A stretch of 64,000 bases of DNA from assembly GCF_026210795.1 (NCBI RefSeq), contig NC_089435.1:372001-436000 (forward strand). The letters are read 5' to 3'. The notes under the pieces were generated by a model. That model saw only the letters and a program-made list of their open reading frames with translations. It was not told the DNA's origin and made no database searches. Made by a program: the position numbers and the translations under genes. The first letter of the stretch is position 1. Every line of letters begins with the position of its first letter. This stretch comes from Rhizophagus irregularis. Taxonomy: Eukaryota. Of the stretch, positions 5,026 to 63,599 are shown piece after piece.

Positions 5026-6446
5026 GTTGATGTATACCAAGTAAAGTTAAAAGATTACGCTAATAAATCCTTTGATAAGGATAAAAACAATACAAACTTC
5101 GCATAGATAACTGAAACGTGTTCTTTAAAAATGTTATAATATAAGTTTATATCATGTACGAAAAAAAATGCATTTCTAGACATTTCTAGACCCTAGACTC
5201 TAAGAATGAACTTCTACCTCGATCCTGTGATTCTAGACACGCAAATACTCCTGTTAATTCTTGCTTCAAAATGATGTATGATTTTCGAGAGATCGACCCA
5301 AATCTCCTTCCCGGAATCCATTTAATTCACCTGCTGTGAATTTTGTCAGGTTATCACTCTCAACAAGAACGAGATTTGTAATAACGTCCTCTGCTTCGTT
5401 GGGCATCTCAGTTTTCCATAAGGCTAAGTCTCTTGCCTCGTTATTATATAAGGAAGTTGGAAGTTGACGTCATTCCCAGTATTCACTCAAATAAGATCCA
5501 TGATTCTGCCACGATTAATAAAAGCTACTTATTTATATTCTGATTTTCAAAACTTCCCCCTTTCCAAGTTAATCATTGCGATTAGTAATATAGTGAAAAT
5601 CATATCCCTTTTGGTATTTTCATAAGATATAAAGTTTGTAGACCTTGGCAATTGCAAAGTTTTCACGCACTTACAACACTTTACTCTGCTGAACGATCAT
5701 AGAGCACCTATTTGTTTTTATCCCAGAAAACATCTAGTATTCCTTCAGAAAATCTTCTTTATTCGCATATGTGAGAGAAAACTAATATTACCAAAAAAAG
5801 GATTGTCTACTTAATGAAAAACTTGCTGTTGCAAGAAACTAACGCAGATATTTGTAAATAATATTATGTACAGACCGGATAAGAGGTGATAATTTATATG
5901 AAAAGAGTGTGTCCAAAGATTGTCGACATTTCTGTTGAATGTTTGAGAATAATTTCTTTGTCCTTATAACTAAAGCGAAATTCTTTTGTATTCCATAAGA
6001 ATCATTTCAGTAATCACGATTTTCTAGGAAATCAAGTGTTTAAGTCTTGCGAAAACCGAAGCAAACGCAAACTACAAACACGATATCGTCACTATCACCG
6101 TACTTCCAAAATTTTCAATAGAATCATATACGATATATCGATTTCCGGAAACATGTGTAACATGTGTTGTGTGCAGATTCTATATGACCTATATTTATGT
6201 ACCTGAAATACATTATTTCTTACGAAGTGGCGTTGATTATGTTGAAGCTGTACCTCTTAATTACACAGCGTTTCCATATTCGGGATCAAATAGACTCAAT
6301 TTCTATCTCAAGTGAACGAAGTGATCGACATGCATAAATTAATTGTGCAACAATATCGGAGTCGTAACTCCGAAAATGAATTTAATTTACCACAAACCAA
6401 ACTTCAAACAAAAACCTCTCCTTCCCTTTCTTTTTTTCACTTAAAT

Positions 6447-8123
6447 ATGGCGTGTTCAAAAATATTTTCAGGAGAATTACCCGAATTATTAAGCGATATT
6501 ATGCAATATTTTCGGAATGATTTTTCAACATTACATTCTTGTATCTTAGTCAATAGATTATGGTGTCATTTGGCAATTCCATTATTATGGGAAAATCCAT
6601 TTTCAATTATATCTCATAAAAATTATTATAACATTGAATATCATGAAATTCGTTTTATTGAAAATTATTTGATTAATTTAAATGATAATGATAAAATAAA
6701 ATTAAATGAATTTGGTATAAATCATTTAACTCCTTCAAATACATTATTTAATTATCCTAGTTTTATTCAACATTTAGATGCTCATTTGATTGGTGATTGT
6801 ATTGAAAACTGGGTTGCAGCTGTTAAAAAAAATGAACAATGTTTATTATTATTTCTTAAGAATACACAAAATTTAGATTTCATAAAATTTTTTCATAAAT
6901 TATTAATTAAAATATTCATTGAAAATAAAGCAAATTTATATGCTTTTGATATTACATATCATCATAAATATTTTGATATTAATTCTGAATCAGTTTTACA
7001 AAGTTCAAATTTCATTTATAATATCAAAATTCTTTATCTTGATATTAATGCTCCTTTATTAAAATTTTTAAGTTCTAATTGCAATTCAATTTCATCACTT
7101 CATATTTCAAATTTTGTTAAGTATAAAGATAGTACAGCTATTGAATATTTATCACAATTAATTAAATCACAAAAAAATCTTAAAAAAATTTGCTTTATTG
7201 ATGAAATTCCTCCAATATTATTGAATTCTAATTGTTCAAATACTTTAAACACAATTATATTTTGCGATATTGATTTTAAAGATATAAATAATTTAAATGA
7301 AGTATTTGAAGAATTAAATGTTTTAGAATCTATTCATATTATAAATTGTTATTCTTTAGGTTCTAATTTTATTCAACAAATAATTAATTCAATTAAACCA
7401 TTTAAATTAAAATCTTTAATTATAGATGAAATATTCGAGTCAATAGATTTATTATTACAAAAATCTGGAGATTATTTGGAAAATTTTGGATTATCATTTG
7501 AACCTAATACATTTTATTATGGTGTATCAGATTCACAATTCCTTGAGTCAAAATCAAAAATACTTAAATTAATTACAAGATATTGTACGAAAATTAAATT
7601 CTTTAAACTAACTGAATTTAGTAATCAGAACATCTATTTAACATTCAACTTAATTGAAAACATTAAACAAAACCTTAATTATCTTACTATTGATACAAAT
7701 TACGATTTTGGATCAGGTTTAGATACTGAACTTGGATCAATTATACTGCAAAATTTAGGTCAAATACTTCCTTTTAAATTAGAATATTTAGATTTGACTC
7801 TTGTTATGAATACTACAGATTTTGAAATATTTTTGATAAATTCTCACAATACTTTTATCGAGAAGTTATTACTTAGTAATAAAATGGATAGAAAACGAGA
7901 AAAAGTTGGGCAAGACAATATGTTATACAATATAAAAGAATATATTATGAAAATGAAAAGAGTTAAATACTTTGCTTTTAAAAATCATTTTTTCACTGAT
8001 GCTTATGGTCATAAAGAATTATTTTATCTGAAAGATGAAGTAAAGGAGTTTAAGTTATATAATATAGTAATCCAAAATTATAATGATTTGAAAATTAAAT
8101 TTTTCGAATTTATAAGTGATTAA
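6447..8123 (+). CDS. F-box domain protein with degenerate LRR/RNI-like C-terminal region (558 aa)
   Basis: Long uninterrupted ORF. The first ATG followed by F-box-type sequence is at 6447: MACSKIFSGELPELLSDIMQYFRNDFSTLHSCILVNRLWCHLAIPLLWENPF, then the LFNYPSFIQHLD motif. The ORF-track start at 6312 is GTG and probably not used. Confidence 0.85.
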   Translation: MACSKIFSGELPELLSDIMQYFRNDFSTLHSCILVNRLWCHLAIPLLWENPFSIISHKNYYNIEYHEIRFIENYLINLNDNDKIKLNEFGINHLTPSNTLFNYPSFIQHLDAHLIGDCIENWVAAVKKNEQCLLLFLKNTQNLDFIKFFHKLLIKIFIENKANLYAFDITYHHKYFDINSESVLQSSNFIYNIKILYLDINAPLLKFLSSNCNSISSLHISNFVKYKDSTAIEYLSQLIKSQKNLKKICFIDEIPPILLNSNCSNTLNTIIFCDIDFKDINNLNEVFEELNVLESIHIINCYSLGSNFIQQIINSIKPFKLKSLIIDEIFESIDLLLQKSGDYLENFGLSFEPNTFYYGVSDSQFLESKSKILKLITRYCTKIKFFKLTEFSNQNIYLTFNLIENIKQNLNYLTIDTNYDFGSGLDTELGSIILQNLGQILPFKLEYLDLTLVMNTTDFEIFLINSHNTFIEKLLLSNKMDRKREKVGQDNMLYNIKEYIMKMKRVKYFAFKNHFFTDAYGHKELFYLKDEVKEFKLYNIVIQNYNDLKIKFFEFISD

Positions 8124-8711: not shown

Positions 8712-10244
8712 CTACAATAAATCCTTTATAGCGATTTCAACACCATATTTGCATGTTCGCAAATTATTTTGTGCTACAACACTTTTGGCTGCTTTTTTGA
8801 ACCATTGAGTTGCATTACTCTGGTTTTTTCCCGTTCCACAACCATGTTCATAACAATATCCCACATTATTTTGTCCCATTTTATACCCATTTTTAGCCGA
8901 TTTTAAATACCACTCAAATGCTTTTTTCTCATCCTTATCTGTTCCTTTACCATATTTGTAACAATCTCCTAAATTATTTTGTGCTACAGCATTACTAGTA
9001 TTTTCAGCTGCTTTTGTGTACCATTCAAATGCTTTTATTTCATTCTTGTCAGTTCCTTTGCCATTTTCATAGCAATATCCTAAATTATATTGTCCATCAT
9101 TACATCCTATAATAGCTGATTTTGTATACCATTCAAATGCTTTTGTTTCATCCTTATCTGTTCCTATCCCATGGTCATAGCAATATCCCACATTATTTTG
9201 ACTCATTGCATTTCCATTTTTAGCTGATTTTAAATACCATTTAAACGCTTCTATTTCATTCTTGTCCGTTCCTTTACCACATTCATAACAAGATCCCACA
9301 TTAATTTGACTCTTTACATATCCATTTTTAGCTGATTTTAAATACCATTTAAATGACCTTATTTTATTTCTTTTCACTACTTTTCCAGATTGAAAATGAC
9401 ATCCTACCTTACTTTGTGCTATTGAATCATTTGATATCGCAGATTCTAAGTCCATTTCAAATTTACTCCTCAACCTATTTTTAAAAGCAGAAGATATATT
9501 TGGTTTAATACTAGATTCTAAAAACAAGTCAAATGCTTTTTTTTCGTCTTTTTGTGTTCCTATTCCATCCATATAACAAATTGCCAAATTATATTGTGCA
9601 TCTAAATTTTTTTTTTCAGTCAAACTTAAAAGTAATTCAAAAACTTTTTTATAATCAACATTTACATCTTTTCTACAAATTATTAAATTAAAATGTACTT
9701 CTAATTTACTTTTTCCGTCTAATTTTAGAAGAAACAGTAATTTATTTTGTTCAAGATCAGTAACAGATAAAATACTATTAATAAAATCTTTATAATAAAA
9801 TAATGATAATAAATATTTTCCAATAATCGTGTTACTATTTCTTAACAAATTGAATACACCATTATTTTTTATAATCAAATGTAATTGATTGTTATCTATT
9901 ATATCTAAAGAATCATAATTAATATTATTATTGATGGCAATTAAATAACAATCCAACGCCTTTTCCCTATTAAGATTACAACCAATACCAAATTGATAAA
10001 AATATCCTATTAAACTTGTAAACCAAGATTTATTTCCTTTATGGTTTTCCATTATTTTGAGAATTCTTTCAGGATCTTTATCATTACTTTCAAAGGAAGT
10101 TTTCATCCAATTAGTCGAAATCTTTTCAAAATTCTCAAAGTCATATGATTTAATAATGTTATTACGAAATTTTATTATAAGATTCTTTAAATAATTTTCA
10201 TCATCTATAGAAATATTGATATCTATCATTTTATTGGACGACAT
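8712..10244 (-). CDS. SEL1-like repeat protein (510 aa), no kinase domain
   Basis: Repeated AQYNLxxCYxxGxGTxKxExKAFEWYxKSA units in the C-terminal half. One N-terminal SEL1-like unit (LIGYFYQFGIGCNLNREKALDCY). Confidence 0.9.
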   Translation of the reverse strand: MSSNKMIDINISIDDENYLKNLIIKFRNNIIKSYDFENFEKISTNWMKTSFESNDKDPERILKIMENHKGNKSWFTSLIGYFYQFGIGCNLNREKALDCYLIAINNNINYDSLDIIDNNQLHLIIKNNGVFNLLRNSNTIIGKYLLSLFYYKDFINSILSVTDLEQNKLLFLLKLDGKSKLEVHFNLIICRKDVNVDYKKVFELLLSLTEKKNLDAQYNLAICYMDGIGTQKDEKKAFDLFLESSIKPNISSAFKNRLRSKFEMDLESAISNDSIAQSKVGCHFQSGKVVKRNKIRSFKWYLKSAKNGYVKSQINVGSCYECGKGTDKNEIEAFKWYLKSAKNGNAMSQNNVGYCYDHGIGTDKDETKAFEWYTKSAIIGCNDGQYNLGYCYENGKGTDKNEIKAFEWYTKAAENTSNAVAQNNLGDCYKYGKGTDKDEKKAFEWYLKSAKNGYKMGQNNVGYCYEHGCGTGKNQSNATQWFKKAAKSVVAQNNLRTCKYGVEIAIKDLL

Positions 10245-12417
10245 TGTTGGTTTTCTTGTTTAAATTTTTTTTTTTAAAAAAAAAATTATGTTGGAGTCTA
10301 ACGTTAACAATTCTTTAAATAATGCTACTGTAGATCAAAGTGGTACGACATTTTTGTAATGTCATCTGATACTTGTTGATTGATCAAATGACCATATTTT
10401 AAATAAAGATTGACATTTCTTACTTATAAAGTTAAATTAATTATGCAGATCCAATTCTTGGAGTTAAACACTTAAGCAATATAAGAAATTATCGTTCAGC
10501 CCAATAGGTTCATGCAGATTTTCATTGTTGATCATCATGTATACAATACAAAGTATAAATGCATAATAACAAAGAATTAATATGTGATAATTAAACCTTT
10601 TTTTTAAAAAAGTTTACTAAACACCACCAAAATATCTACCCGCGGATCTTCAAATCATTTATTGCCGCAGGTAATTTACATCGGCTAAATTTATGCCGAT
10701 ATGACTGTTTTAAAATTTTCCAATATAAATCTAAATACTAACAAACAACTAATTAAATCCTATCTAAACTATCTAAACTAGTATTCCTTTAGTCCTTTAC
10801 TTTTTTTCTTAAATCATCTATATTTTTCTGAATTAAATTATTAAAAAATTGTAAATTAATTTTTATAAATCGAAAACCTTAAGTGAGAGAACTTCGTTAG
10901 CTTGTCAAGATAAAGAATATGATATATCCACAATTAAGCACAAAAACTATGTCAAGAGAAATAATTTTTCGGATTTATATTAATTATTTTATTGAGTACA
11001 ACAAAATACTTCGTTCTATTCAATGATCTTGCGATGCATACACAATTATTTCACATAATGAAGATATTAACGTTAAAGGTGAAGATGATTTATATTTTAT
11101 ATTCATTTGAAACAGTAATTTAGAGGTACATTATATAAATAATTCCATAACTGATAACAACATCTTTATTAAATAACTGGTACATAGTTATTACTAAATA
11201 AGTCTGCAAACACTAAATATGTTAAAAAGCATGTTTATTAATCACATAAATTTTCTTCGCGGTAGTTTGGTAAAATTATTGTTCACATAACGAGATTTCT
11301 TGATACCGTCATATTTTCTATCTTGTGAAATATAAAGTATCTCCTTGATATGCCATAAACTTTCGTCAACGTTTCTGTTTCTAAATTATAGTAATTGTTC
11401 AAATACTTCAATTGAAGCAACTATATTTTTAAAATCAATATAATAAAATACAATTGTTCTTAAAGTATTTATTCAGTATTCAACCGATATCTCTCTTCTC
11501 TCACTCAATAATAACTATCTAATATTATATAGTACAGCTTTATATTTACTTTTCACTTGGTAATAAAGAGTTATGCAATCAGATGGTGTTATTGTCATAC
11601 TTCAGAGAAACTAAATGTGAAATGCGAGGTATGTCAAGACACAAAAAGATAAATATTGAAGTTTTCATTTTCTTAATATAATGTTGCGATCCGTCATTCG
11701 GATGGTTATCCAGATCATCCGTTATTTACGGATCAGCTTAAAGCGTCAAAGTTGGTTTTTAATGTCAATTTTGACTTATTTAGCAGATTTTTGTTTTCTG
11801 TTTTTCCCGCTAAATTTAATTCTGCCAAACATTAAATGATCAGCATAGAAAATTTTCTTTTTTTGGAAACCCATGTTTAAACACAAATAGAAATAGTCAT
11901 TATAAGTCTATTTTTAATGATTATTAATTCAAATTTTATTATATATCTGATATTATAGAATAAAAACTTAATTTAACCTTGGTCACCAGTTGTTGAGAAA
12001 ATAACGAAAAATAGTATAAGATTGGAATTTAGTATATATTCGTTATAAACGAATGATATTTTTAAGACTGTAACAAAAAAGAATTATAAACTAACAATAA
12101 TTTTTTTTTATAAATATGTTAAATAGTAATTTAATGTATTTTATCCATTCTTTTTTGTAAGAACATGTAATTACTTCCTTTTAATTAAATCACGTGAACG
12201 GCAAATTTTATCATTACACAATACACAATGTATTTTTAAAGGAATTTCTTAACGCAGATCAGTGCATCGGAAAAATTATGGCCCGAAAATATATTTTTTA
12301 TTGTAACTTCTACTTTTAGTTAAAGTATTCCTTTTAAGTAACCTAATTCATGAAATATTGAAAAAATTTTCGTCTTAATAATTTTTTTAGTAAAATAAAT
12401 TTCTAAAATAAAAACAA

Positions 12418-15400
12418 ATGGAAACCAAATTTAGTAAATCTAATATCTCAGTTGCTGATATAGTAAACACCAAAAATTGTTTATATTGCAATAAACCCTT
12501 TACTGAAGAATTATGGTGTAAAGAATGTATTAATTCTTTAGAAAAATCAGCAGAAAATGGTAATAAAGTAGCAATATTTAATTTAGCTAAAAGGTATTAC
12601 AATGGGGAAGGAACAGAAAAGAATTTAGAAAAAGCCTTTTATTGGTATCAAAAAGCAGCAGAAAATGGTGATGAAGAGGTAATGCATAATTTAGCTTTTT
12701 GTTATTACAATGGAGAAGGAACAGAAAAGAATTTGGAAAAAGCCTTTTATTGGTATCAAAAAGCAGCAGAAAATGGTTTCATTTATTCAATGCATAATTT
12801 AGCCTTACGTTATTACAATGGAGAAGGAACAGAAAAGAATTTAGAAAAAGCCTTTTATTGGTATCAAAAAGCAGCAGAAAATGGTTTCACTAATTCAATG
12901 CATAATTTAGCCTTTTGTTATGAAAATAAAGAAGGAACAGAAAAGAATTTAGAAAAAGCCTTTTATTGGTATCAAAAAGCAGCAGAAAATGGTTTCACTA
13001 ATTCAATGCATAATTTAGCCTTACATTATTACAATGGAGAAGGAACAGAAAAGAATTTAAAAAAGGCCTTTTATTGGTATCAAAAAGCAGCAGAAAATGG
13101 TTTCACTATTTCAATGCATAATTTAGCCTTTTGTTATGAAAATGGAGAAGAAACAGAAAAGAATTTAGAAAAAGCCTTTTATTGGTATCAAAAAGCAGCA
13201 GAAAATGGTGATGAAGAGGTAATGCATAATTTAGCCAATTGTTATTACAATGGAGAAGGAACAGAAAAGAATTTAGAAAAAGCCTTTTATTGGTATCAAA
13301 AAGCAGCAGAAAATGGTTTCACTATTTCAATGCATAATTTAGCATTACGTTATGAAAATGAAGAAGGAACAGAAAAGAATTTAGAAAAAGCCTTTTATTG
13401 GTATCAAAAAGCAGCAGAAAATGGTTTTACTATTTCAATGCATAATTTAGCCCTACATTATTACAATGGAGAAAGAACAGAAGAGAATTTAGAAAAAGCC
13501 TTTATTTGGTATCAAAAAGCAGCAGAAAATGGTTTCACTAATTCAATGCATAATTTAGCCTTACGTTATTACAATGGAGAAGGAACAGAAAAGAATTTAG
13601 AAAAAGCCTTTTATTGGTATCAAAAAGCAGCAGAAAATGGTTTCACTAATTCAATGCATAATTTAGCCTTATGTTATTACAATGGAGAAGGAACAGAAAA
13701 GAATTTAGAAAAAGCCTTTTATTGGTATCAAAAATCAGCAGAAAATGGTTTCACTAATTCAATGCATAATTTAGCCAATTGTTATTACAATGGAGAAGGA
13801 ACAGAAAAGAATTTAGAAAAAGCCTTTTATTGGTATCAAAAAGCAGCAGAAAATGGTTTCACTATTTCAATGCATAATTTAGCATTACGTTATTACAATG
13901 GAGAAAGAACAGAAGAGAATTTAGAAAAAGCCTTTATTTGGTATCAAAAAGCAGCAGAAAATGGTTTCACTAATTCAATGCATAATTTAGCCTTACGTTA
14001 TTACAATGGAGAAGGAACAGAAAAGAATTTAGAAAAAGCCTTTTATTGGTATCAAAAAGCAGCAGAAAATGGTTTCACTAATTCAATGCATAATTTAGCC
14101 GTATGTTATTACAATGGAGAAGGAACAGAAAAGAATTTAGAAAAAGCCTTTTATTGGTATCAAAAATCAGCAGAAAATGGTTTCACTAATTCGATGCATA
14201 ATTTAGCCTTTTGTTATGAAAATGGAGAAGGAACAGAAAAGAATTTAGAAAAAGCCTTTTATTGGTATCAAAAAGCAGCAGAAAATGGTTTGACTAATTC
14301 AATGTATAATTTAGCCTTTTGTTATGAAAATGAAGAAGGAACAGAAAAGAATTTAGAAAAAGCCTTTTATTGGTATCAAAAATCAGCAGAAAATGGTTTG
14401 ACTAATTCAATGCATAATTTAGCCTTTTGTTATGAAAATAAAAAAGGAACAGAAAAGAATTTAGAAAAAGCCTTTTATTGGTATCAAAAAGCAGCAGAAA
14501 ATGGTTTTACTGATTCAATGCATAATTTAGCCTTTTGTTATGAAAATGAAGAAGGAACAGAAAAGAATTTAGAAAAAGCCTTTTATTGGTATCAAAAAGC
14601 AGCAGAAAATGGTTTCACTAATTCAATGCATAATTTAGCCTTACATTATTACAATGGAGAAGTAATAGAAAAGAATTTAGAAAAAGCCTTTATTTGGTAT
14701 CAAAAAGCAGCAAAAAATGGTTTTACTGATTCAATGCATAATTTAGCCTTACGTTATTACAATGGAGAAGGAACAGAAAAGAATTTAGAAAAAGCCTTTT
14801 ATTGGTATCAAAAAGCAGCAGAAAATGGTTTCACTAATTCAATGCATAATTTAGCCTTATGTTATAACAATGGAGAAGGAATAGAAAAGAATTTAGAAAA
14901 AGCCTTTTATTGGTATCAAAAAGCAGCAGAAAATGGTTTTACTAATTCAATGTATAATTTAGCCTTACATTATTACAATGGAGAAGGAACAGAAAAGAAT
15001 TTAGAAAAAGCCTTTTATTGGTATCAAAAAGCAGCAGAAAGTTGTTTCACTAATTCAATGTATAATTTAGCCATTTGTTATGAAAATGGAGAAGGAACAG
15101 AAAAGAATTTAGAAAAAGCCTTTTATTGGTATCAAAAAGCAGCAGAAAATGGTTTCACTAATTCAATGTATATTTTAGCCTTTTGTTATGAAAATGGAGA
15201 AGGAACAGAAAAGAATTTAGAAAAAGCCTTTTATTGGTATCAAAAAGCAGTAGAAAATGGTGTTAAAGAGGCAATGCATAATTTAGCCTTACGTTATTAC
15301 AATGGAGAAGGAACAGAAAAGAATTTAGAAAAAGCCTTTTATTGGTATCAAAAAGCAGCAGAAAATGGTGAAAAAAAAGCAATGAATAATTTAGCCATAT

Positions 15401-17374
15401 GTTATTACAATGGAGAAGGAATAGAAAAAAATTTAGAAAAAGCTTTTTATTGGTATCTTAAATCAGCAGAAAATGGTTTCACTGATTCTATGTATAATTT
15501 AGCCTTACGTTATTACAATGGAGGAGGAACAGAAAAGAATTTAGAAAAAGCCTTTTATTGGTATCAAAAAGCAGCAGAAAATGGTTTCACTAATTCAATG
15601 TATAATTTAGCCTTTTGTTATGAAAATGGAGAAGGAACAGAAAAGAATTTAGAAAAAGCCTTTTATTGGTATCAAAAAGCAGCAGAAAATGATGTTGAAG
15701 CAATACATAATTTAGCCAATTCTTATTATAATGGAGAAGGAACAGAAAAGAATTTAGAAAAAGCCTTTTATTGGTATCAAAAAGCAGCAGAAAATGGTTT
15801 CACTAATTCAATGCATAATTTAGCCTTTTGTTATGAAAATGGAGAAGGAACAGAAAAGAATTTAGAAAAAGCCTTTTATTGGTATCAAAAAGCAGCAGAA
15901 AATGGTTTCACTAATTCAATGTATAATTTAGCCTTTTGTTATGAAAATGGAGTAGGAACAGAAAAGAATTTAGAAAAAGCCTTTTATTGGCGTCAAAAAG
16001 CAACAGAAAGTAACAAAATAGATTTTAAAAATGAAGTTGAATTATGCAATATATGCAAACAGCTATATACTAATTACCAGTGGTGTCAACAATGTAATGT
16101 CAAACAATTTCAACAAGATTTTTCAAAGTGGACCAGTAAAAATGAATTTATTGATAAATTTATTCAAGAAGCACAACTAAATGCCAAAAATAGTTATGAA
16201 ATTTTAGAATGGATACCTTATAATAAATTGTCAAATATCAATTATTATGATAAAGGAGGATTTAGTGAAATTCATAAAGCTATCTGGTTAGATGGTCCTA
16301 TTTTTAGTTGGAATTTTGACAAACAACAATGGAATAGACAATTAGGTTATGAGGTTATTCTTAAAACACTTAATAATTCATCAAGTTTAAATAGTAAATT
16401 TCTGGATGAGGTATATATATTATTTATATTTATTAGCAATTTTTTTTTCTTTTACAAAAATTAATTTTGTTTTATTATTTATACAGTGGAAATATCATTA
16501 TAATTGTCAGAAAAAATCATTTTCAAAATTTATTCAATTTTTTGGATGTACCCAAGATCCAAATAATTTAAATTATATAATAGTAATGAGTTATGCAAAA
16601 AAAGGAAGTTTAAGAAAATGTTTGTCTGATATAATTAAATTTAAATGGCAAGAAAAGTTACAATTATTGAAAAAAATTGTATTAGGGCTCAAAGTAATTC
16701 ATGAATCAAATTTAACTCATGGTGATTTTCATGATGGTAATATTTTAATATCAGATAATTACAATGAGTTATTTATTATTGATTTAGGATTATGTAAACC
16801 TATAAATGATTTACAAGATTCTGACAATAAAATTAAAGAAATTTATGGAGTTTTACCTTATATGGCACCTGAAACATTAAGACAAAAACCCTATACACCA
16901 GCAAGTGATATTTATAGTTTTTCAATGATAATGTGGGAATTTACATCAGGTATTCCTCCATTTAATCGTGTAGCACATGATCATCACCTTATTTTGAGTG
17001 TCTGTGAAGGGAAACGCCCTGAAATTGTTGAAAATACTCCAAAATGTTATATAGATTTAATGAAAAAATGTTGGGATTCAGATCCTTCCAATAGACCGAC
17101 CATAACAATGCTCGAAGATATTATATCTGAGTGGATTAGATGTATTAATGAATATTATAGAATAAACAGGGATGGAAATTATAAATTTGTAGTATCTAAT
17201 ATAGATAATAAATTAAAAGATGATATGTTTGAATTTATAAAAGCAAACAAAACTTTAGTACAAGAACAAGCAAATGCTTCTATTATACAATCACATACAC
17301 AAGCATATTATACAAGTCGTAAATTTACTGAAATCTTAAATACTGGTTGTCTTGAATGTGAAGTTAATATTTAA
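12418..17374 (+). CDS. SEL1-array + TKL-type protein kinase, paralog 1 (32 SEL1 repeats; ~1626 aa). Exons 12418-16410 and 16487-17374
   Basis: The two overlapping ORFs are joined by a phase-0 intron GTATAT...ATACAG (16411-16486). Order: CLYC...WCKEC, 32 x 36-aa SEL1 repeats, CNIC...WCQQC, WTSKNEFID, then kinase motifs KGGFSEI, VILK, HGDFHDGN, DLG, YMAPE, SDIYSF, CWDSDPSNRP. Confidence 0.92.
12571..16012 (+). repeat. Coding tandem array of 32 near-identical 108-bp SEL1 units
   Basis: Near-invariant core GGAACAGAAAAGAATTTAGAAAAAGCCTTTTATTGGTATCAAAAAGCAGCAGAAAATGGT recurring every 108 nt (one 105-nt unit). Confidence 0.95.
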
Positions 17375-18246
17375 TAATTCTGTTGTTTATTCTTTATTTG
17401 TTAGGCTATTTGTCAGTTGTTATATTGCAATTTTTACTAAAATAAATATTTTAAATGCAGATATAATAATTATCAAAAAAATCTTTATTATAATTTTTAT
17501 TTTTTAATTGAAATTTGTTATGCTTAATATTCATATCCACACTTTAAGATTAAGAACTTACCAGTATTATTTATTGCTTTAAAAAAATATTATAATTATA
17601 TTTCATAGAATATGGATTCTTAAAATATAATTATAAAATTCATTTATTGAAGTTGTATCATCGATGCCATCTTTTAAAACAGCTTGGATTATTACTTATT
17701 TCTATTTCCTTTTTAATTAAGATTGATAAACTATATTTATTGTGAATGAATAGGTTAATATATAGTTACTTGGTGAAACTATGCAGTATTTAGTTAATCC
17801 CTATAAAAACGAAATGTCTGATATTTGTATTTTTTTTATCTAACTTTGTCTAAATTTTGTGTAAAAATTCATTATATTGTGCTTAAATAACTATCTAGCT
17901 GTAATCGTATTGTATAATTTCCTTTTGTTTCTTGTCAATTTAAATCATCCTTGTTGTTCATTTGTTTTATCATGAGAAATTTGAAGTCAAAGAATGATGA
18001 GATCTATTAAACAATTCGTATATAATTACATATATTTTTCAATAATAATGATTTTATGTGACGAAAGCCTGAAAGGCCTTAATAAAAATATATCATTTGT
18101 GTAATATTTGCATTGCCATCACTATTTTGTGTTCTGGCTATAGATTAATGTTGCACTTTGATGTCGAGATGACACTGTTGGTTCTAGAAATATTAATTAT
18201 TGAAACTGAATTTTAATGTCATGAAACTGTGAGCAATAATTTAATG

Positions 18247-18445
18247 CCCTGTAAAAAATCTGATCCTTGTTTTATCTTTCCATGTTTTTTCCGTGAATGT
18301 ATCATTTTCATGGAATTTATAGCCTTAAATCATGGAAATTTTCATCTCGCTAACACGGATATCCGTGAATGTATCATTTTCACGGAATTTTTACGGAAGA
18401 CACGGAGAAATAATGGAAATATTCGGATAAAAATTTTTTATAGGG
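18247..18445. mobile_element. MITE with CCCT(G/A)TAAAAAA TIRs and 3-bp TSD (copy 1)
   Basis: CCCTGTAAAAAATCTGATCC ... GGATAAAAATTTTTTATAGGG with ATG on both flanks. Internal repeat CCGTGAATGTATCATTTTCA occurs twice. Second copy at 59531-59719. Confidence 0.8.
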
Positions 18446-22200: not shown

Positions 22201-23443
22201 TTATCTTGTAATTTGAAATACTTCATATTCTTCCACAGAAAATAAATCAGAAAATAAATCAGTAGTTTCACTGATTTGTTTTTCGTAAGCAAAATTACCA
22301 CATACATTTACCAAAATCTCCATCTAAAACCAAGTCACTGATACCAAATAATGGTCCACGATCAAAGGAGTTAAGTATAGCGACTTTTTCATTTTTTATA
22401 CGACTTAAAATATAACTTTTAATATCATTATATCTCTTAAACGAGAATATAAAACTGTCCTTAGTAGTGCCATAAGAATCATCAGACTTCCATTCAATTG
22501 GATTATATCCACCAAAAATTTCCTTACTGACTTTCACCTTAATAATTGTTACAGTACGAGATTGATTATCACAAATTTCATGAAATTTTTTATATGTAAA
22601 TCCATCACGAGATCCACAAAGTAACAATTTGAATTTGTATGTATTTTTTATCTCATCTGTAATTTCAGTTCTATCGATCCATTTTGAGATTAATTCAGCA
22701 TGTCGAATTGTAATAATTTTGGAATCAATGGAATCAATATTAATTTCTTCAGTAGTAATATGAGGTTTTGATGTTTTACTTGATTGGATACTGGGTTTCA
22801 AGAAATATTTTAATAAATCTTCATATAATTCCTTTAATATAATTTTTTTATAAGGCAATACTTTATCTGCAAATTCTTCAGAAGTTAAATTATAGAATCT
22901 AATATGTGGAACGCAATGTTATAAACTATTTTTCAAAGCATTAAAATCTTCTTTTGAAAAATTAGTAGGATCGGAAGGTTTTGGATTTTGAGCAAGTTTC
23001 CATCTAAGCACATTTTTCCATACTTGAATTTCATTCATTTGAAGATTATCACTTTGAATAAGTGAAACCAAAAGTTTTTCTGAAATTGAGGAAAAATTTA
23101 GAGATTTATATATCTTGTTTGGCTCTTTGGTTATTAAATTATTACAAAATTCTTAAAGTTCCAAGAAAGAATCATTCTCAAAACTTGTCTTATATATCAA
23201 ATCAAAATTAAATTCCATCCAATTTGCCTTAGTTTCAATCAAAAAGGATTGTAAATAAGTGGTTAATTCTTGGAGACCAAGTTCACTACCAGAAACTAAG
23301 ATATCCAAAGTATCATGCAGATATGCTTGATAGTTTTGTGTTACATGAAAAATAATGACATCATTGCAGATCTTGATAATTTACTCTTTTCCGTTAATAT
23401 AAAAAATTTTAAATATTTTTTTTGCTAAAGTTTTATTATCCAT
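22201..23443 (-). pseudogene. Decayed BTB-BACK-TLDc gene
   Basis: Recognisable BACK (ELGLQELTTYLQSFLIETKANWME; LQMNEIQVWKNVLRW) and TLDc (FKLLLCGSRDGF...FHEICDNQ...FGGYNPIEW...VEEYEVFQI) segments. In-frame TAA at 23153-23155 and 22919-22921, a frameshift near 22295, and most of the BTB region missing or garbled. Confidence 0.85.
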
Positions 23444-48399: not shown

Positions 48400-51300
48400 T
48401 TAAATTTTAATTACACATTCAAAACACTCAGAATTTTCTTGAACTAAGATTTCAGTAAGTCTGCGACTTGTATAATATGCTTGTGAATGAGATTGTATAA
48501 TAGCAGTATTTGCTTGTGGATGATATTGTATAATAGAAGTATTTGCTTGTTCTTGTACTAAAGTTTTGTTTGCTTCTACAAATTCAATCATATCATCTTT
48601 TAATTGATCATCAACATTAGATACCTTAAATTTATAATCTCCATCCCTGTTTATTTCATAATATTCATTAATACATCTAATCCATTCAGATATAATATTT
48701 TCAAGCATTCCTATAGTTGGTCTATTGGAGGGATTTGAATCCCAACATTTTTTCATTAAATCTATATAACATTTTGGAGTATTTTTTATGATTTCAGGAC
48801 GTTTCCCTTTACAAATATTCAAGGTAAGGTGATGATCATGTGCCTCATGATTAAATGGAGGAATACCTGATGTAAATTCCCACATTATCATTGAAAAACT
48901 ATAAATATCACTTGCTGGAGTATAAGGTTTCATTCTTAATATTTCTGGTGCCATATAAGGCAAAACTCCATAAATTTCATTAATTTTATTATCAGTATCT
49001 TGCAAATCATTCATAGGCTTACATAATCCCATATCAATAATAAATAACTCATTGTAATTATCTGACATTAAAATATTACCATCATGAAAATCACCATGAG
49101 TTAAATTTGATTCATGAATTACTTTAAGTCCTAATATAATTGTTTTCAACAATTGTAACTTGTCTTGCCATTTAAATTTAATTATATCAGATAAGCATTT
49201 TCTCAAACTTCCTTTTTTTGCATAACTCATTACTATTATATAATTTAAATTATTTGGATCTTGGGTAAATCCAAAGAACTGAATAAATTTTGAAAATGAT
49301 TTTTTCTGACAATTATAATGATATTTCCACTATATAAATAAAAAAAAATCATTAAAGTTTTGCAAAAGATTATAAAATTTGCTATTAAATAAAAATACTA
49401 TACCTCATTCAGAAATTTACTATTTAAATTTGATGAATTATTAAGTGTTTTAAGAATGACTTCATAACCTGTTTGAAAATTACATCTATTCCATTGTTGT
49501 TTGTCAAAATTCCAACTAATAATAGGTCCATCTAACCAGATAGCCTTATAAATTTCGCCAAATCCTCCTTTATCATAATAATTAATATTTGACAATTTAT
49601 TATATGGTATCCATTCTAAAATTTCATAACTATTTTTAGCATTTAATTGTGCTTCTTGAATAAATTTATCAATAAATTCATTTTCGCTAGTCCACTTTAA
49701 AAAGTCTTGTTGGAATCGTTTAATATTACATTTTTGGCACCACTGGTAATCATTATATGGTTGCTTGCATTCATTACATAATTCAGCTTCATTTTTAAGA
49801 CCCACTTTGTTACTTTCAACTATTTTTTGATGCCAATAAAATGCTTTTTCTAAATTCTTTTCTGTTCCTTCTCCATTTTCATAACATAAGGTTAATAAAA
49901 ACATTGCGGTAGTATGTCCATTTTCTGCTGCTTTTTGATACCAATGAAAGGCTTTTTCTAAATTATTTTCTATTCCTTCTCCTTTAATATACATACAGGC
50001 TGAGTAAAACATTGCATCAGTATGTCCATTTTGTGCTGCTCTTTGATACCAATAAAATGCTTTTTCTAAATTCTTTTCTGTTCCTTTTCCTTCTTTATAA
50101 CATATGGCTAAACTATTCATTGCTTTAATATGATCTTTTTCTGCTGCTTTTTGATACCAGTGAAAAGCTTTTTCTAAATTTTTTTCTGTTTCTTCTCCAT
50201 TATTATACATGATGGCTAGATTAAACATTGCATTTTCATCATTTTTTGCCGCTTTTTGATACCAATAAAAGGCTTTTTCTAAATTCTTTTCTGTTCCTTC
50301 TCCTTTTTTATAATAAATGGCTAAATTGAACATTGCATTAGTATGTCCATTTTCTGCTGCTTTTTGATACCAATGAAAGGCTTTTTCTAAATTATTTTCT
50401 ATTCCTTCTCCTTTAATATACATACAGGCTGAGTAAAACATTGCATCAGTATGTCCATTTTGTGCTGCTCTTTGATACCAATAAAATGCTTTTTCTAAAT
50501 TCTTTTCTGTTCCTTTTCCTTCTTTATAACATATGGCTAAACTATTCATTGCTTTAATATGATCTTTTTCTGCTGCTTTTTGATACCAGTGAAAAGCTTT
50601 TTCTAAATTTTTTTCTGTTTCTTCTCCATTATTATACATGATGGCTAGATTAAACATTGCATTTTCATCATTTTTTGCCGCTTTTTGATACCAATAAAAG
50701 GCTTTTTCTAAATTCTTTTCTGTTACTTCTCCTTTTTTATAATATATGGCTAAATTACTCATTGCTTCTTCAATACCATTTTCTGCTGCTTTTTGATAAC
50801 AATGAAAGGCTTTTTCTAAATTCTTTTCTATTCCTTCTCCATTTTCATAACATACGGCTAAATTAAACACTGCATAAGTATGTCCATTTTCTGCTGCTTT
50901 TTGAAACAAATGAAAGGCTTTTTCTGAATTCTTTTCTGTTCCTTTTCCATTATAATAACATGTAGCTAAGTTAAATATTGCTTCTTTAACACCATATTCT
51001 GCTACTTTTTTATACCAATAAAATGCTTTTTCTAAATTCTTTACTGTTCCTTTTCCTTCTCCATAACATATGGCTAAATTATTCATTGCTCCTTCAACAC
51101 CATTTTCAGCTGCTTTTTGATACCAATAAAAGGCTTTTTCTAAATTCTTTTCTGTTCCTTCTCCTTTTTTATAATAAATGGCTAAATTGAACATTGCATT
51201 AGTATGTCCATTTTCTGCTGCTTTTTTATACCAATGAAAAGCTTTTTCTAATTTTTTTTCTGTTCCTTCTCCATCATAATAACACATGGCTAAATAAACC

Positions 51301-52328
51301 ATTGCAATAGTATATCCATTTTCTGCTGCTTTTTGATACCAATAAAAGGCTTTTTCTAAATTCTTTTCTGTTCCTTCTCCATTATTATACATGATGGCTA
51401 AATTAGACATTGCATTAGTATGTCCATTTTCTGCTGCTTTTTTATACCAATAAAAGGTTTTTTCTAAATTCTTTTCTGTTCTTTCTCCATAATTATACAT
51501 ACTGGCTAAATTAAACATTGCATTAGCATATCCTTTCTCTGCTGCTTTTTGGTACCAATAAAAGGCTTTTTCTAAATTTTTTTTTGTTCCTTCTCCATTA
51601 TAATATTTATCGGCTAAATTAAAACTTGCTTCAATATGGTCTTTTTCAGCTGCTTTTTGTATCCAATAAAAGGCTTTTTCTAAGTTCTTTCCTGTTCCTT
51701 CTCCTATATAATAACACACTTCTAAATTAAACATTGCATTAGTATATCCATTTTCTGCTGCTTTTTGATACCAATAAAAGGCTTTTTTTGAATTCTTTTC
51801 TGTTCCTTCTCCATTTTTATACATACAGGCTAAATTAAAAATTGCTTCAATATAGTCTTTTTTGGCCGCTTTTTGCATCCAATAAAAGGCTTTTTTTAAA
51901 TTCTTTTCTGTTCCTTCTCCAGTATAATGATATATGGCTAAATTAAAAATTGCTTCAATATGGTCTTTTTCAGCTGCTTTTTGTATCCAATAAAAGGCTT
52001 TTTCTAAATTCTTTTCTGTTTCTTCTCCATTATAATATATACTGGCTAGTTTAAACATTGCATCTTCATCATCATTTTCTGCTGCTTTTTGAAACCAATT
52101 AAGGGCTTTATTTAAATTCTTTTCTGTTCCTTTTCCATAATAATAACTATTGGCTAAATTAAACATTGCTACTATATTACCACTTTCTGCTAATTTTTCC
52201 AACGAATTAATACATTCTTTACACCACAATTTTTCAGTAAAAGGCTTATTGCAATATAAACAATTTTTGATGTTTATTAAATTAGTATCTTTATCTGAGA
52301 TATTTGATTTACTAAATTTAGTAACCAT
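48400..52328 (-). CDS. SEL1-array + TKL-type protein kinase, paralog 2 (~22 SEL1 repeats; ~1284 aa). Exons 49404-52328 and 48400-49329
   Basis: Same architecture and same phase-0 intron (49330-49403, after FLNE) as paralog 1. Kinase motifs KGGFGEI, VILK, HGDFHDGN, DMG, YMAPE. Confidence 0.92.
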
Positions 52329-53519
52329 TTGGTTTTATTTTTGAGATAAATTTTGCTAAAATTTTATTTTTTTAAAAATTTTTTTTCTCGTTCAATGAAT
52401 GAGTTACTAGAAGGGAAAATTTTAATTAAAAGTAGAAGTTACGACAAAAAATTTTTTCGGACATATTTTTCCGATGCACTGATCTGCGTTGAGAAATGTT
52501 GCACTTCTACACAATAATGTATTTAATGTGACACAGAATGTTACGATTGGAATTATGTTTTACCATTCATGTGATTTTAATAAAAGGAAGGAAAAAAAGT
52601 TTTCTCACAAAATGAATATATAGAAATAATATAATAGATTAATTAAAGAATTTTAAAAACTTTTTTGTTATAGTTTTAAAAATATTATTAATATCGAATG
52701 TGTAACTCTTTCCGTCGATCATCAGTCCAAAAAATTCTCAGAACGAAAAAATAGACGGAGTGCTAAAAGTTATTTTTTAAAGATTTTTTACGTATTTCTG
52801 ACATTTTATTCACTTTTTTAAGAAGCTGTAGATATGTTTTTTTTCTCAAAAGTTATAAGTAGTTTATAGATTAATTGCCATTGACCAGGTTCGCAGGAAA
52901 TTACTTAAAAAGCTGGCATGGGCAAAGGTTTTTTAAGGAGCAGTCTTGAAAAGAAGCAACCAGGACCAATAAATAAATTAACCACTTTCACCTTACTTGT
53001 TTATGGGCTTTGGTTACTTGGACTCGGAACTTTTCCGTCTTTTTTCGCTTTTTTTTCGGTGGCGCAGCACAACGTAGTCCGAATTTCGGCAAGAAATTTT
53101 ACCGATGACGTAGTCCCAAGTGTAGATAGGTGTTGCTTAAACCTGTTTTCAATCTAAAGTATGCAGACTTGTAAGAAACCATACATGTATGAATTTTTAG
53201 CATAAGAATAAATAACATAATACATGACGATCAATCAATACATGATCATAAAACACGGTTTAATAATTTCTATTTATTAAACCAAAAACGAAAAAAAATT
53301 AAACTTTCTAATTCTTTGCGTAGCTTTATATTTTCTAATTCTAGTTTTTCAACTTCTGCTAGAGCTCTATGATTTGCTGTTTGTCTTTCAGCCAATGTTC
53401 TTTAATTTCTATTTGTAAAATAGTACACGTTTTCACTTCTACTTCTTTTATATATTATAAATATGATAAATAACTTGCAAATAAAGAAACTAAGTCCAAT
53501 TTAATAAATACACAATTAT

Positions 53520-61353: not shown

Positions 61354-63294
61354 TTAATCTTCAATTACACAATCAAAACCCTGAGTCTCTTGAACTAAAA
61401 TTTCACTAAGTTTGCGACTTGTATAATGTGCTTGTGGATGAGATTGTATAATAGAAGCATTTACTTGTTCTTGCACTAAAGATTTGTTTGCCTCAACAAA
61501 TTCCAACATAACATCTTCTAATTGATTATCAACATTAGGTACAACATATTCATAATCTCCATTACTATTTATTCTATAATAATCACTAATACATCCAATC
61601 CATTCAGATATAATATTCTCAAGCATTATTATAGTTGGTCTATTAGCAGGATCTGAATCCCAACATTTTTTCATTAAATCCACATAGCATTTTGGAGTAT
61701 TTTCTATAATTTCAGGACGTTTCCCTCCACAAATACTCAAGATAAGCTTAAAATCATGTGCTTCATAATTAAATGGAGGAATACCTGATGTAAATTCCCA
61801 CATTATCATTGAAAAACTATAAATATCGCTTGTTGGAGCGTAGGGTTTTTTTCTTAATATTTCAGGAGCCATATAAGGTAAAACTCCATAAATTTCATTA
61901 ATTTTATTAGCAGTATCACTTATGGGTTTACATAATCCTAAATCAATAATAAATAACTCATTTTGATTATCTGACATTAAAATATTACCATCATGAAAAT
62001 CACCATGAGTTAAATTTGATTCATGAATTACTTTGAGTCCTAATCAATAAATGTAATCTGTCTTGCCACTTAAATTTAATTATATCAGATAAACATTTTC
62101 TCAAACTTCCTTTTTTTGCATAACTCATTACTATTATATAATTTAAACTATTTGGATCTTTAGTAATTCCACAGAATTGAATAAATTTTGAAAATGATTT
62201 TTTTTGACAGGTATAATGATATTTCCACTATATAAATAATAAAAAAATTATTAAATTTTTGCAAGAGAAAATAAATTAGCTATAAAATAATATAAATAAC
62301 ATACCTCCTCCAGAAATTTATCATTTAAATTTGATGAATTATTAAGTGTTTTAAGAATAACCTCATAACCTGTTTGAAAATTACATCTATTCCATTGTTT
62401 TTTGTCAAAATTCCAACTAAAAATAGGTCCATCTAACCAGATAGCTTTATGAATTTCACTAAATCTTCCTTTATCATAATAATTAATACTTGACAATTTA
62501 TCATAAGGTATCCATTCTAAAATTTCATAACTATTCTTAGCTTTTAATTGTGCTTCTTGAATAAATTTATCAATAAATTCATTTTTACTAGTCCACTTTG
62601 AAAAATCTTGTTGAAATTGTTTAGTATTACATTGTTGGCACCACTGGTAATAAGTATATGGTTGCTTGCATTCATTACATAATTCACCAGCTTCATTATT
62701 ATAACTTACTTCATTACTTCTTGTTGCTCTTTGTTGCCAATAAAAGGCTTTTTCTAAATTCTTTTCTGTTCCTTCACCATTATAATACATACCAGCTAAA
62801 TTATTCATTGTACTAGTATTACCATGTTCTGCTGCATTTTGATACCAAGAAAAGGCTTTTTCTAAATTCTTTTCCGTTCCTTCTCCACTATAACAACACA
62901 TGGCTAAATTAAACATTGCTTCTTTAACACCGTTTTCTGCTGCTTTTTGATACCAATAAAAGGCTTTTTCTAAATTCTTTTCTATTCCTTCTCCATATTC
63001 ATAACATACGGCTAAATTATTCATTGCATCTGCATCACCATTTTCTGCTGCTTTTTTATACCAGTAAAAAGCTTTTTCTAAATTCTTTTCCGTTCCATTT
63101 CCACCTTCATAACGTATGGCTAAATTAAATATTGCTTCTCTATTACCATTTTCTGCTAATTTTTCTAAAGAATTAATGCATTCTTTACACCATAATTCAT
63201 TAGTAAAAGGTTTACTGCAATATAAACAATTTTCGTTATTTATTGTATTGATATCATTATTTGAAATATTTAAATTGCTAAATTTCGTTCCCAT
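61354..63294 (-). pseudogene. SEL1-array + kinase, paralog 3 (4 SEL1 repeats), frameshifted in the kinase. Exons 62305-63294 and 61354-62227
   Basis: Same architecture and intron as paralogs 1 and 2. Exon 2 is 874 nt (not a multiple of 3): about 11 nt are missing near 62045 relative to the paralogs, upstream of HGDFHDGN. The Gly loop reads KGRFSEI. Confidence 0.8.
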
Positions 63295-63599
63295 TTTTTA
63301 TTTAGAAACTTATTTTATTGAAAGAATTTATTTTTTTTTGACAAATTTTTTTTTATATTTTATTGAGTTTACTAAAAAGGAATACTTGAACCAAAAGTAG
63401 AAGTCACAACAAAAAAAAAAAATTTTTTCGGGTCATATTTTTTCCGATAAACTAATCTGCGACGAGTTAAAATCATAGATAAATATCTATAATAAAATAT
63501 TGAATTTTTCAAAAATTAATCTTGTTATTTTTTTACATTAAGATTATTTGATCATATAATTTTAAAAAAAAATTAAGCGAATGTAAGCGAATTCATTAT

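What the first reader, a model, noticed from the sequence alone, without database searches (positions are those of the whole stretch)
12571..16012. 32 near-identical SEL1 repeats with variation confined to a few positions (repeat-code-like)
Seen: the scaffold is almost invariant even at synonymous sites. The dipeptide after NLA runs KR, FC, LR, FC, LH, FC, NC, LR, LH, LR, LC, NC, LR, LR, VC, FC, FC, FC, FC, LH, LR, LC, LH, IC, FC, LR, IC, LR, FC, NS, FC, FC. Further switches occur at FTNS/FTIS/FTDS/DEEV, H/Y and YNG/ENG/ENE/ENK, and the variants recombine in different combinations. Established: fungal non-self receptors such as Podospora HET-E/HET-D use highly conserved internal repeats with a few hypervariable residues, reshuffled by unequal crossover. 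Inference: this is a kinase-coupled variable-specificity receptor built from SEL1 repeats. No signal peptide or transmembrane segment is evident, so it is probably cytosolic.
Basis: partly seen in the sequence, partly recalled or inferred. Interest (0 to 1): 0.78.

Follow-up and report, generated by a model that had tools for sequence, protein, structure and literature searches.

The report
Shuffled-repeat sensor kinase of mycorrhizal fungus
A mycorrhizal fungus (Rhizophagus) gene joins 32 near-identical Sel1 repeats to a protein kinase domain; the repeats differ mostly on one helix predicted to line a binding groove and appear to be reshuffled by recombination, so this large kinase family is likely a variable-specificity sensor inside the cell, with ligand and role untested.

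Summary
Observation confirmed. The window holds an intact 1626-aa Rhizophagus gene: Cys motif, 32 Sel1 repeats, second Cys motif, TKL-type kinase; no transmembrane segment, no NACHT/NB-ARC domain. Units average 91% nucleotide identity, carry a recombination signature, and contain no exact duplicate longer than 211 nt. RNA-like contigs match both exons and break at the intron. The same nine positions vary in 44 related proteins; they map to the helix that forms the concave groove in Sel1 structures and to TPR ligand-contact positions. Against scaffold synonymous rates they show omega 2.1-3.2 in 4 of 4 arrays. With their own synonymous rate the excess holds in 2 of 4, not in this gene (p=0.26). 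47 of 49 such kinases are non-RD. The Sel1 and kinase expansions of Rhizophagus are published; my ten paper searches found no description of this repeat pattern in them. Best reading: an NLR-like variable sensor wired to a kinase instead of a NOD domain (0.55). Not shown: ligand, kinase activity, variation between isolates, read support across the array. 'Confined to a few positions' is overstated (9 of 36 positions hold 70% of differences); a TALE-like code is unlikely.

The parts
12418..16410 (+). Exon 1 (1331 codons): N-terminal segment, Sel1 array, linker, kinase N-lobe
   Evidence: open frame; homologues start with the same N-terminus at 74-96% identity
12478..12528 (+). N-terminal CxxC-x9-CxxC motif (aa 21-37), possible zinc site
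   Evidence: motif scan; only sub-threshold Pfam zinc-ribbon hits (E 0.003-0.005)
12571..16005 (+). 32 Sel1 (SLR) repeats of 36 aa; variable columns 3,4,7,8,10,11 (helix A) and 34-36 (linker and start of helix A)
13435..14190 (+). Block duplication: units 9-11 and 13-15 differ at 4 of 324 nt; holds the longest exact internal repeat (211 nt)
15595..15699 (+). Unit 29, one codon short (in-frame)
16045..16095 (+). Second CxxC-x9-CxxC motif (aa 1210-1226) ahead of the kinase
   Evidence: region matches unnamed Mucoromycota clusters only
16255..16410 (+). Kinase N-lobe: Gly-loop remnant GGFS, VILK lysine, helix-C glutamate
   Evidence: model of homologue P0182
16411..16486 (+). 76-nt GT-AG intron
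   Evidence: contigs of run X1 match exactly on both sides and stop at its edges
16487..17374 (+). Exon 2: TKL-type kinase C-lobe with non-RD loop HGDFHDGN (16718-16741), DLG, APE, then C-terminal tail and stop
   Evidence: Pfam PF07714 E 8e-34
17375..17462 (+). Probable 3' UTR (end of the RNA-like contig)
   Evidence: run X1 record 2
48400..52334 (-). Paralogue with 22 Sel1 repeats and the same kinase type
61354..63297 (-). Paralogue with 4 Sel1 repeats and the same kinase type; matches R. irregularis protein UZO06621 at 98.5-100%

Best explanation
The gene encodes a Sel1-repeat solenoid fused to a non-RD TKL-type kinase domain and is likely a cytosolic, variable-specificity sensor whose groove would bind foreign or modified proteins and would switch on the kinase. 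SHOWN: architecture; homogenised repeats; mosaic units and a block duplication; the same positions variable across the family; non-RD catalytic loop with K, E, D, N, D retained. PREDICTED: an SLR superhelix in which the variable positions lie on helix A, the concave surface (about 4 turns, roughly 240-300 A by the c5321 geometry). INFERRED: unequal crossover or gene conversion keeps the scaffold uniform while generating new orders of helix-A variants (27 distinct 14-residue cassettes in 32 units); diversifying selection maintains the variants; about three adjacent repeats form one pocket, so a long array offers many pockets or avidity; binding activates the kinase by dimerisation or release of autoinhibition. 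The ligand (endobacterial, viral, mycoparasite, plant or non-self fungal protein) is unknown.
For: Family pattern: 446 units from 44 other proteins vary at the same columns (Spearman 0.68 with this gene, p=5e-6). That variation has helical periodicity in helix A (peak 96 degrees, permutation p=0.005); helix-A face diversity is 0.63 against 0.19 at polar helix-B positions (p=0.002), and 0.41 against 0.07 in this gene (p=0.03). AF2 model pLDDT 90.7, best folds 6OK3 and 4BWR. In 4BWR helix-1 forms the concave face (PMC3851747, passages). Columns 36,3,4,7,10,11 map to positions 2,5,6,9,12,13, the TPR ligand contacts (PMC1261162, passages). Codon model with shared dS: omega 3.2, 2.7, 2.1, 2.1 at the nine columns against 0.3-0.6 in the scaffold, p<0.001 in 4 of 4 arrays. 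Neutral conversion simulations reached the observed pN in 1 of 211 retained replicates of 4367 run. Recombination. 47 of 49 distinct Sel1-then-kinase proteins are non-RD, while 6 of 6 kinase-then-Sel1 proteins are RD; non-RD G/C loops mark plant pattern receptors (PMC3411088, passages). Spliced RNA-like contigs. The same regime is described for Podospora TPR/ANK/WD NLR repeats (PMC4986451, passages).
Against: With a separate dS at the nine columns, omega>1 is significant in only 2 of 4 arrays on the ML tree (p=0.036, 0.033) and not here (1.64, p=0.26); synonymous change is 2.5-fold raised there in this gene. The test ignores recombination and multi-nucleotide changes, which inflate it; iqtree partition fits gave scattered values of 0.2-3.1. 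Helical periodicity is not significant for this gene alone (p=0.16), and column 8, one of the most variable, sits at the edge of the face. Its three main codons (TGT, CGT, CAT) are related by CpG deamination, and Sel1 and kinase genes of R. irregularis are highly CG-methylated (PMC8647823, passages). Concave positions are the most variable in all TPRs, so the pattern shows a binding scaffold, not immunity. One family member with less uniform repeats has 10 of 10 identical units in two different assemblies (P0010/P0040). No allele of this array from another isolate was obtained. Non-RD is one clade-wide trait, not 47 independent events. The simulation left out import from paralogues.
Confidence: 0.55

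Rival explanations
1. Near-neutral repeat turnover. The array expanded recently by unequal crossover in a repeat-rich, methylated region; groove positions are merely unconstrained; CpG decay and conversion from paralogues supply the variants; specificity is not selected.
For: Scaffold pN equals pS within this gene (0.041 vs 0.043); dS is raised at the variable columns and omega is not significant when that is allowed; CpG-related codons at column 8; 16 of 58 variant codons differ at more than one base; 70-nt exact match to the 22-repeat paralogue; family sits in the methylated, dispensable compartment.
Against: Frame intact over 4.9 kb with one in-frame deletion; exact RNA-like contigs; neutral simulations, including 10x CpG mutation, rarely reach the observed diversity (1 of 211); exposed helix-B positions stay uniform; CGT persists in 8 of 30 units although CpG o/e in the array is 0.16.
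Confidence: 0.24
2. Endogenous signalling kinase. The solenoid docks the fungus's own substrates or regulators, and paralogues diverge in the groove to split cellular targets; no non-self role.
For: SLR/TPR grooves are general protein-binding modules; AMF papers file these families under signalling; some members keep their arrays unchanged or collinear between assemblies and between R. irregularis and R. diaphanus.
Against: Close paralogues (91-95% identical after the array) share 0-2 helix-A cassettes with this gene; fixed partners should not favour homogenised, reshuffled arrays; non-RD loop.
Confidence: 0.11
3. Assembly artefact: the number or order of units is inflated or chimeric.
For: No reads spanning the array were examined. 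Seven pairs of public models that are 100% identical after the array differ in unit number (e.g. 14 vs 11), and a third model of that gene has 2. Short-read assemblies invent or drop such repeats (PMC12222747, passages).
Against: 29 of 32 units are distinct, the longest exact repeat is 211 nt, the frame is intact, the last unit equals that of public protein POG70769, and arrays of 22-23 or more units occur in a paralogue and in two metagenome contigs.
Confidence: 0.05
4. TALE/PPR-like reader: one repeat per nucleotide, with the dipeptide at columns 7-8 as the code.
For: Near-identical repeats with a variable dipeptide; Asn, His and Tyr are common on the face.
Against: Variation spans a helix face plus linker; the variants are mostly hydrophobic (F, L, I, V, C); units carry mean net charge -1.1; folds match protein-binding SLRs.
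Confidence: 0.05

Closest known systems
Expanded Sel1-like and tyrosine-kinase-like gene families of Rhizophagus (public models named 'Skt5p', 'HCP-like protein', 'kinase-like domain-containing protein', e.g. EXX52258, GBC14801, GBC45434)
   Same: Same architecture; 91-95% identity after the array; same variable columns and non-RD loop. The expansions are published (PMC8647823, PMC6123716, bioRxiv 2021.08.12.456011; passages).
   Different: 32 units against at most 14 consecutive-array units in the public family proteins retrieved, and joint highest internal identity of 76 proteins. The nearest public models cover only the last unit and the kinase (POG70769, P0191). The passages read say nothing on repeat homogenisation, groove variation or non-RD status.
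Podospora anserina NLRs with high internal conservation (HET-E/HET-D/HET-R WD40; TPR and ANK NLRs such as Pa_2_10340)
   Same: Near-identical repeats, a few variable positions on the binding surface, reshuffling, kb-scale arrays that short reads misassemble (PMC4986451, PMC13449251, PMC12222747; passages).
   Different: No NACHT/NB-ARC ATPase or HET-type effector; Sel1 repeats rather than WD/ANK/TPR; sensor is N-terminal and output is a kinase; Mucoromycota rather than Dikarya; no genetic evidence of incompatibility.
Non-RD receptor kinases of plant immunity (XA21, FLS2, EFR)
   Same: Repeat solenoid joined to a kinase with G or C in place of the catalytic-loop R (PMC3411088, passages).
   Different: Those have a signal peptide, extracellular LRRs and a transmembrane helix; this protein has none. 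Common ancestry of the non-RD state was not tested.
Bacterial SLR solenoids (E. coli c5321 4BWR, Oxalobacter 6OK3, H. pylori HcpC 1OUV)
   Same: Fold and repeat geometry; positive selection on surfaces is reported for H. pylori SLR genes (PMC1941758, passages).
   Different: Those are stand-alone repeat proteins at about 30% identity, without a kinase; H. pylori members are secreted.

Membership tests
Sel1-like repeat (PF08238) proteins | 36-aa helix-loop-helix units matching the profile | tested here: met
   32 stretches, 1210 bits; 13+13-residue helices in the model
Rhizophagus Sel1-then-kinase family | Cys motif, Sel1 array, Cys motif, PF07714-type kinase, high identity to public members | tested here: met
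Active protein kinase | Catalytic K, helix-C E, HxD..N, DxG, APE present | tested here: met
   VILK, FLDEW, HGDFHDGN, DLG, YMAPE; first Gly of the loop is replaced
Active protein kinase | Phosphotransfer activity | not testable with these tools
   needs an in vitro assay
Non-RD kinases | No Arg before the catalytic Asp | tested here: met
   HGD; 47 of 49 in the subfamily
Non-RD receptor kinases (plant PRR type) | Signal peptide and transmembrane helix | tested here: not met
   maximum 19-residue hydropathy 0.79; no dedicated predictor was run
Fungal NLRs (HET-E/HET-D type) | Central NACHT or NB-ARC domain | tested here: not met
   no Pfam hit, no Walker A, no room in the 1626 aa
Fungal NLRs (HET-E/HET-D type) | WD40, ANK or TPR sensor at the C-terminus and a cell-death effector at the N-terminus | tested here: not met
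   N-terminal Sel1 array, C-terminal kinase
High-internal-conservation repeat receptors (works-like) | Over 85% identity across 100 aa, or Psim of 0.7 or more | tested here: met
   units 9-11 vs 13-15 differ at 4 of 324 nt; my Psim-like score 0.89; 74 of 76 family proteins reach 0.70 (redundant models included; T-REKS itself not run)
High-internal-conservation repeat receptors (works-like) | Variable sites on the concave binding face | tested here: met
   by helix assignment and register; no atomic accessibility could be computed
High-internal-conservation repeat receptors (works-like) | Diversifying selection at those codons | tested here: inconclusive
   4 of 4 arrays with shared dS, 2 of 4 with own dS, this gene p=0.26; simulation 1 of 211
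High-internal-conservation repeat receptors (works-like) | Repeat number and order polymorphic between isolates | tested here: inconclusive
   no full allele retrieved; count differences among public models are confounded with assembly and gene-model errors
High-internal-conservation repeat receptors (works-like) | Allele-specific non-self response or cell death | not testable with these tools
   needs genetics or heterologous assays
TALE/PPR nucleic-acid readers | Variation limited to a two-residue code on a basic solenoid | tested here: not met
   nine variable columns, net charge -1.1 per unit

The most novel reading that the evidence does not exclude
Arbuscular mycorrhizal fungi of the Rhizophagus/Glomus group have built a NOD-free intracellular immune or allorecognition receptor family: recombining Sel1 solenoids with a hypervariable groove wired directly to non-RD, RIPK-like kinases, dozens per genome, under-annotated because the arrays collapse or are masked. 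This gene is its longest and most freshly shuffled member found so far.
Probability: 0.4. Interest if true: 0.85.

Novelty: new variant of a known kind. Interest (0 to 1): 0.62.

Why it matters
Why mycorrhizal fungi carry hugely expanded kinase and Sel1 families, and how they tell self from non-self while fusing hyphae and hosting bacteria, are open questions. This finding names a concrete subfamily, nine codon positions and a recombination mechanism, so the question becomes testable with long-read genomes and repeat-swap binding assays. It would extend the diversify-the-groove strategy of Dikarya NLRs to a receptor with no ATPase switch. It also warns that public models of these genes are unreliable in repeat number.

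Tried and rejected
No whole genome is held for the window, so family size in this assembly was not counted. Three protein searches, three cluster look-ups and one metagenome scan (57; 56 loci, 7 with Sel1 units) gave no full-length allele of this array. Read support for the array and for the 5' end of the gene remains untested; only the region downstream of the array was laid, and DNA runs X3 and X5 there were dominated by paralogue contigs. The first codon-model run did not converge (negative LRTs) and was replaced; partition-wise iqtree omegas were unstable. Similarity of units does not fall with distance along the array (Mantel r=0.10, p=0.10). Foldseek hits of the homologue's kinase to RIPK1/RIPK2 were not taken as evidence of function, since any TKL would give them. 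The name 'Skt5p' on public models is an automatic Sel1 label (my recall: chitin-synthase activator) and was not used. P0221/P0226 and P0211/P0228/P0236 have different arrays, but at 93-95% kinase identity I could not call them alleles. Weak Pfam hits (T4 gp19, Ph1570) are repeat artefacts. No complex prediction was run: there is no candidate partner. Ten paper searches (terms combining Sel1/Sel-1/tetratricopeptide, Rhizophagus/Glomeromycot/arbuscular, kinase, NLR, non-self, positive selection) found no description of this pattern. The library lacks most subscription papers (Tisserant 2013, Chen 2018, Morin 2019 and Marold 2015 were not seen), and no supplements were opened; these may bear on the novelty claim. 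All 14 papers were read as keyword passages only.
Full report
1. Observation. The region is an AT-rich eukaryotic locus. An ATG at 12418 opens a 1331-codon exon; a 76-nt GT-AG intron (16411-16486) leads to a second exon ending at 17374, giving 1626 aa. From 12571 there are 32 units of 108 nt, unit 29 being one codon short. Pfam finds 32 Sel1 stretches and a PF07714/PF00069 kinase. Units 2-31 average 91% nucleotide and 84% amino-acid identity; 29 of 32 are distinct. Variation is concentrated but not confined: the top 4 columns hold 42% and the top 9 hold 70% of pairwise differences. F7 and E10 are strongly linked (10 of 11 vs 2 of 21), so much of the array derives from two helix-A types and their recombinants.

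2. Organism and family. The region after the array matches Rhizophagus irregularis proteins at up to 98.5-100% (POG70769 and P0191, both on a contig of 362,112 bp), and a neighbouring paralogue matches UZO06621 at 98.5-100%. The window is therefore R. irregularis or very close. Named Sel1-then-kinase relatives came from R. irregularis, R. clarus, R. diaphanus and Glomus cerebriforme. Two more paralogues of this type lie in the window, with 22 and 4 units. Expansion of Sel1-like and kinase genes in this fungus is published, as are their high CG methylation and their place in the gene-poor compartment (PMC8647823; PMC6123716; bioRxiv 2021.08.12.456011; PMC3886924; passages only). PMC8778642 says the Sel1 domain in these kinases has no clear function in fungi. 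No whole genome was available.

3. Is the array real and expressed? The longest exact internal repeat is 211 nt, the frame is unbroken, and the last unit equals that of POG70769, which argues against a simple expansion artefact; no spanning reads were seen. In run X1 (RNA is a guess) one contig matches 15980-16410 and another 16485-17462 with no differences, each carrying leftover letters at the intron edge, as expected of a spliced transcript; run X2 of the same study also has exact contigs over exon 2. The junction itself was not among the joints listed, and the array and 5' end were not covered by this test. Public models are unreliable on repeat number: 7 pairs that are 100% identical after the array differ in unit count, and one gene appears with 14, 11 and 2 units. 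Gene-model differences may explain part of this. The same problem is documented for Podospora (PMC12222747).

4. Recombination. Of 378 pairs of informative sites, 118 show all four gametes; Rmin is 7 (recurrent mutation can add to this). Units 9-11 and 13-15 differ at 4 of 324 nt, and one unit recurs at positions 3, 10, 14 and 21. The 22-unit paralogue has a 386-nt exact duplication, and shares a 70-nt exact stretch with this array. Scaffold pS between genes (0.13-0.22) is similar to kinase pS (0.17-0.21), so I see no strong family-wide homogenisation beyond that of the kinases.

5. Where the variation sits. In 446 units from 44 other proteins (14 redundant models and this gene left out; proteins under 6 units not used), within-gene diversity peaks at columns 3, 4, 7, 8, 10, 11 and 34-36, correlating with this gene (rho 0.68). 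The AF2 model of residues 1-447 (pLDDT 90.7) puts helix A at columns 35-11 and helix B at 19-31; it matches 6OK3 and 4BWR. In 4BWR helix-1 forms the concave surface and 7-8 units make one turn of 60-65 A (PMC3851747). The conserved A1, L5, A6, Y9, G12, T15 fix an offset of +2 to that paper's numbering, so columns 36, 3, 4, 7, 10, 11 are positions 2, 5, 6, 9, 12, 13, the ligand contacts of TPR domains (PMC1261162). Family diversity in helix A has a 96-degree period (p=0.005); for this gene alone it is not significant (p=0.16). Polar helix-B positions stay uniform. I had no coordinates, so this is a mapping by register.

6. Selection. With columns defined from the other proteins, this gene has pN 0.214 and pS 0.147 at the nine columns, and 0.041 and 0.043 in the scaffold. 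A two-class MG94 model with shared dS gives omega 3.2, 2.7, 2.1 and 2.1 for this gene, the 22-unit paralogue and metagenome arrays L001 and L003, all p<0.001 on the ML tree (the paralogue helped define the columns). When dS is free at those columns, omega is 1.64 (p=0.26), 1.09 (p=0.84), 2.10 (p=0.036) and 2.21 (p=0.033). Simulations of a closed array with conversion, omega 0.5 in the scaffold and 1 at the nine columns, with or without 10x CpG mutation, reached the observed pN in 1 of 211 replicates kept for matching scaffold pS, of 4367 run. They omit import from paralogues. Diversifying or balancing selection is favoured but not proven. Column 8 (TGT 17, CGT 8, CAT 4, TCT 1 of 30) may be partly a CpG hotspot.

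7. Kinase. The catalytic residues are present, and the loop is HGD, a non-RD form. Among distinct retrieved kinases, 47 of 49 with N-terminal Sel1 arrays are non-RD, while 6 of 6 with C-terminal arrays are RD (three of these look bacterial), as is the multi-exon kinase at 33874-40568. In plants, non-RD kinases with C or G are tied to recognition of microbial signatures (PMC3411088). This is one clade-wide trait and only suggestive. A model of homologue P0182 gives a kinase fold with RIPK1/RIPK2 as the first kinase matches. There is no hydrophobic segment, NACHT or NB-ARC domain.

8. Between isolates. No full allele was found. Close paralogues (91-95% identical after the array) share 0-2 of their helix-A cassettes with the 27 distinct ones here, so arrays turn over much faster than kinases. 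Against generality, P0010 and P0040, from different assemblies, have 10 of 10 identical units, and the R. diaphanus counterpart stays collinear; that array has low internal identity (0.63).

9. Reading. It works like the high-internal-conservation NLRs of Podospora (PMC4986451; PMC13449251) but is not one: the ATPase switch is absent and the output is a kinase. The best mechanism is a cytosolic sensor whose groove specificity is varied by repeat shuffling (0.55). Rivals are neutral turnover (0.24), endogenous docking kinase (0.11), artefact (0.05) and nucleic-acid code (0.05). Keyword passages of two fungal-immunity reviews did not mention such receptors in these fungi (PMC12881547; PMC10197012). 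Two earlier AI notes on kinase-LRR genes in Jimgerdemannia point to a similar theme and were not checked.

10. Verdict. Real feature; known gene family; an apparently undescribed evolutionary and structural pattern that gives the family a testable receptor hypothesis. New variant of a known kind; interest 0.62.

Noticed in passing
window 33874-40568 (-): About a dozen exons each encode a repeated module (CxxC...CxxC, WTS, EWI, kinase N-lobe-like part), followed by one RD kinase exon (HRDFHTG); Pfam names neither of the two modules scanned. The same module, once, precedes the kinase of the main gene. Tandem incomplete kinase N-lobes could be decoys or sensors.
   Followed up: partly
window 48400-52334 (-): Paralogue with 22 more divergent Sel1 units (mean identity 0.64) and a 386-nt exact duplication of a four-unit block.
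   Followed up: yes
window 61354-63297 (-): Paralogue with 4 units that starts MGTKFS, resembling an N-myristoylation signal (motif recalled); 6 of 30 family N-termini counted have Gly2. The public model UZO06621 splices out the kinase N-lobe and ends early, and the kinase exon ORF in the window is only 229 aa.
   Followed up: partly
window 8712-10259 (-): Single ORF with 7 Sel1 repeats of a different type behind an unannotated N-terminal region, no kinase in the ORF.
   Followed up: no
window 22295-22918 (-) and 28996-30153 (-): TLDc and BACK-TLDc genes, another expanded Rhizophagus family.
   Followed up: no
window 6294-8123 (+): 609-aa ORF with no Pfam match.
   Followed up: no
window 18240-18445: High-copy element: very deep contig cover in all four runs laid.
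   Followed up: no
public proteins P0029, P0035, P0038, P0175, P0194, P0197 and others: Many models from large-contig assemblies list only an 88-108 aa piece in clusters of these kinases, which suggests the genes are masked or under-annotated there.
   Followed up: no
L001:2613-5096 and L003:129-2852: Metagenome contigs with arrays of 23 and at least 22 Sel1 units ahead of the same linker and kinase N-lobe.
   Followed up: yes
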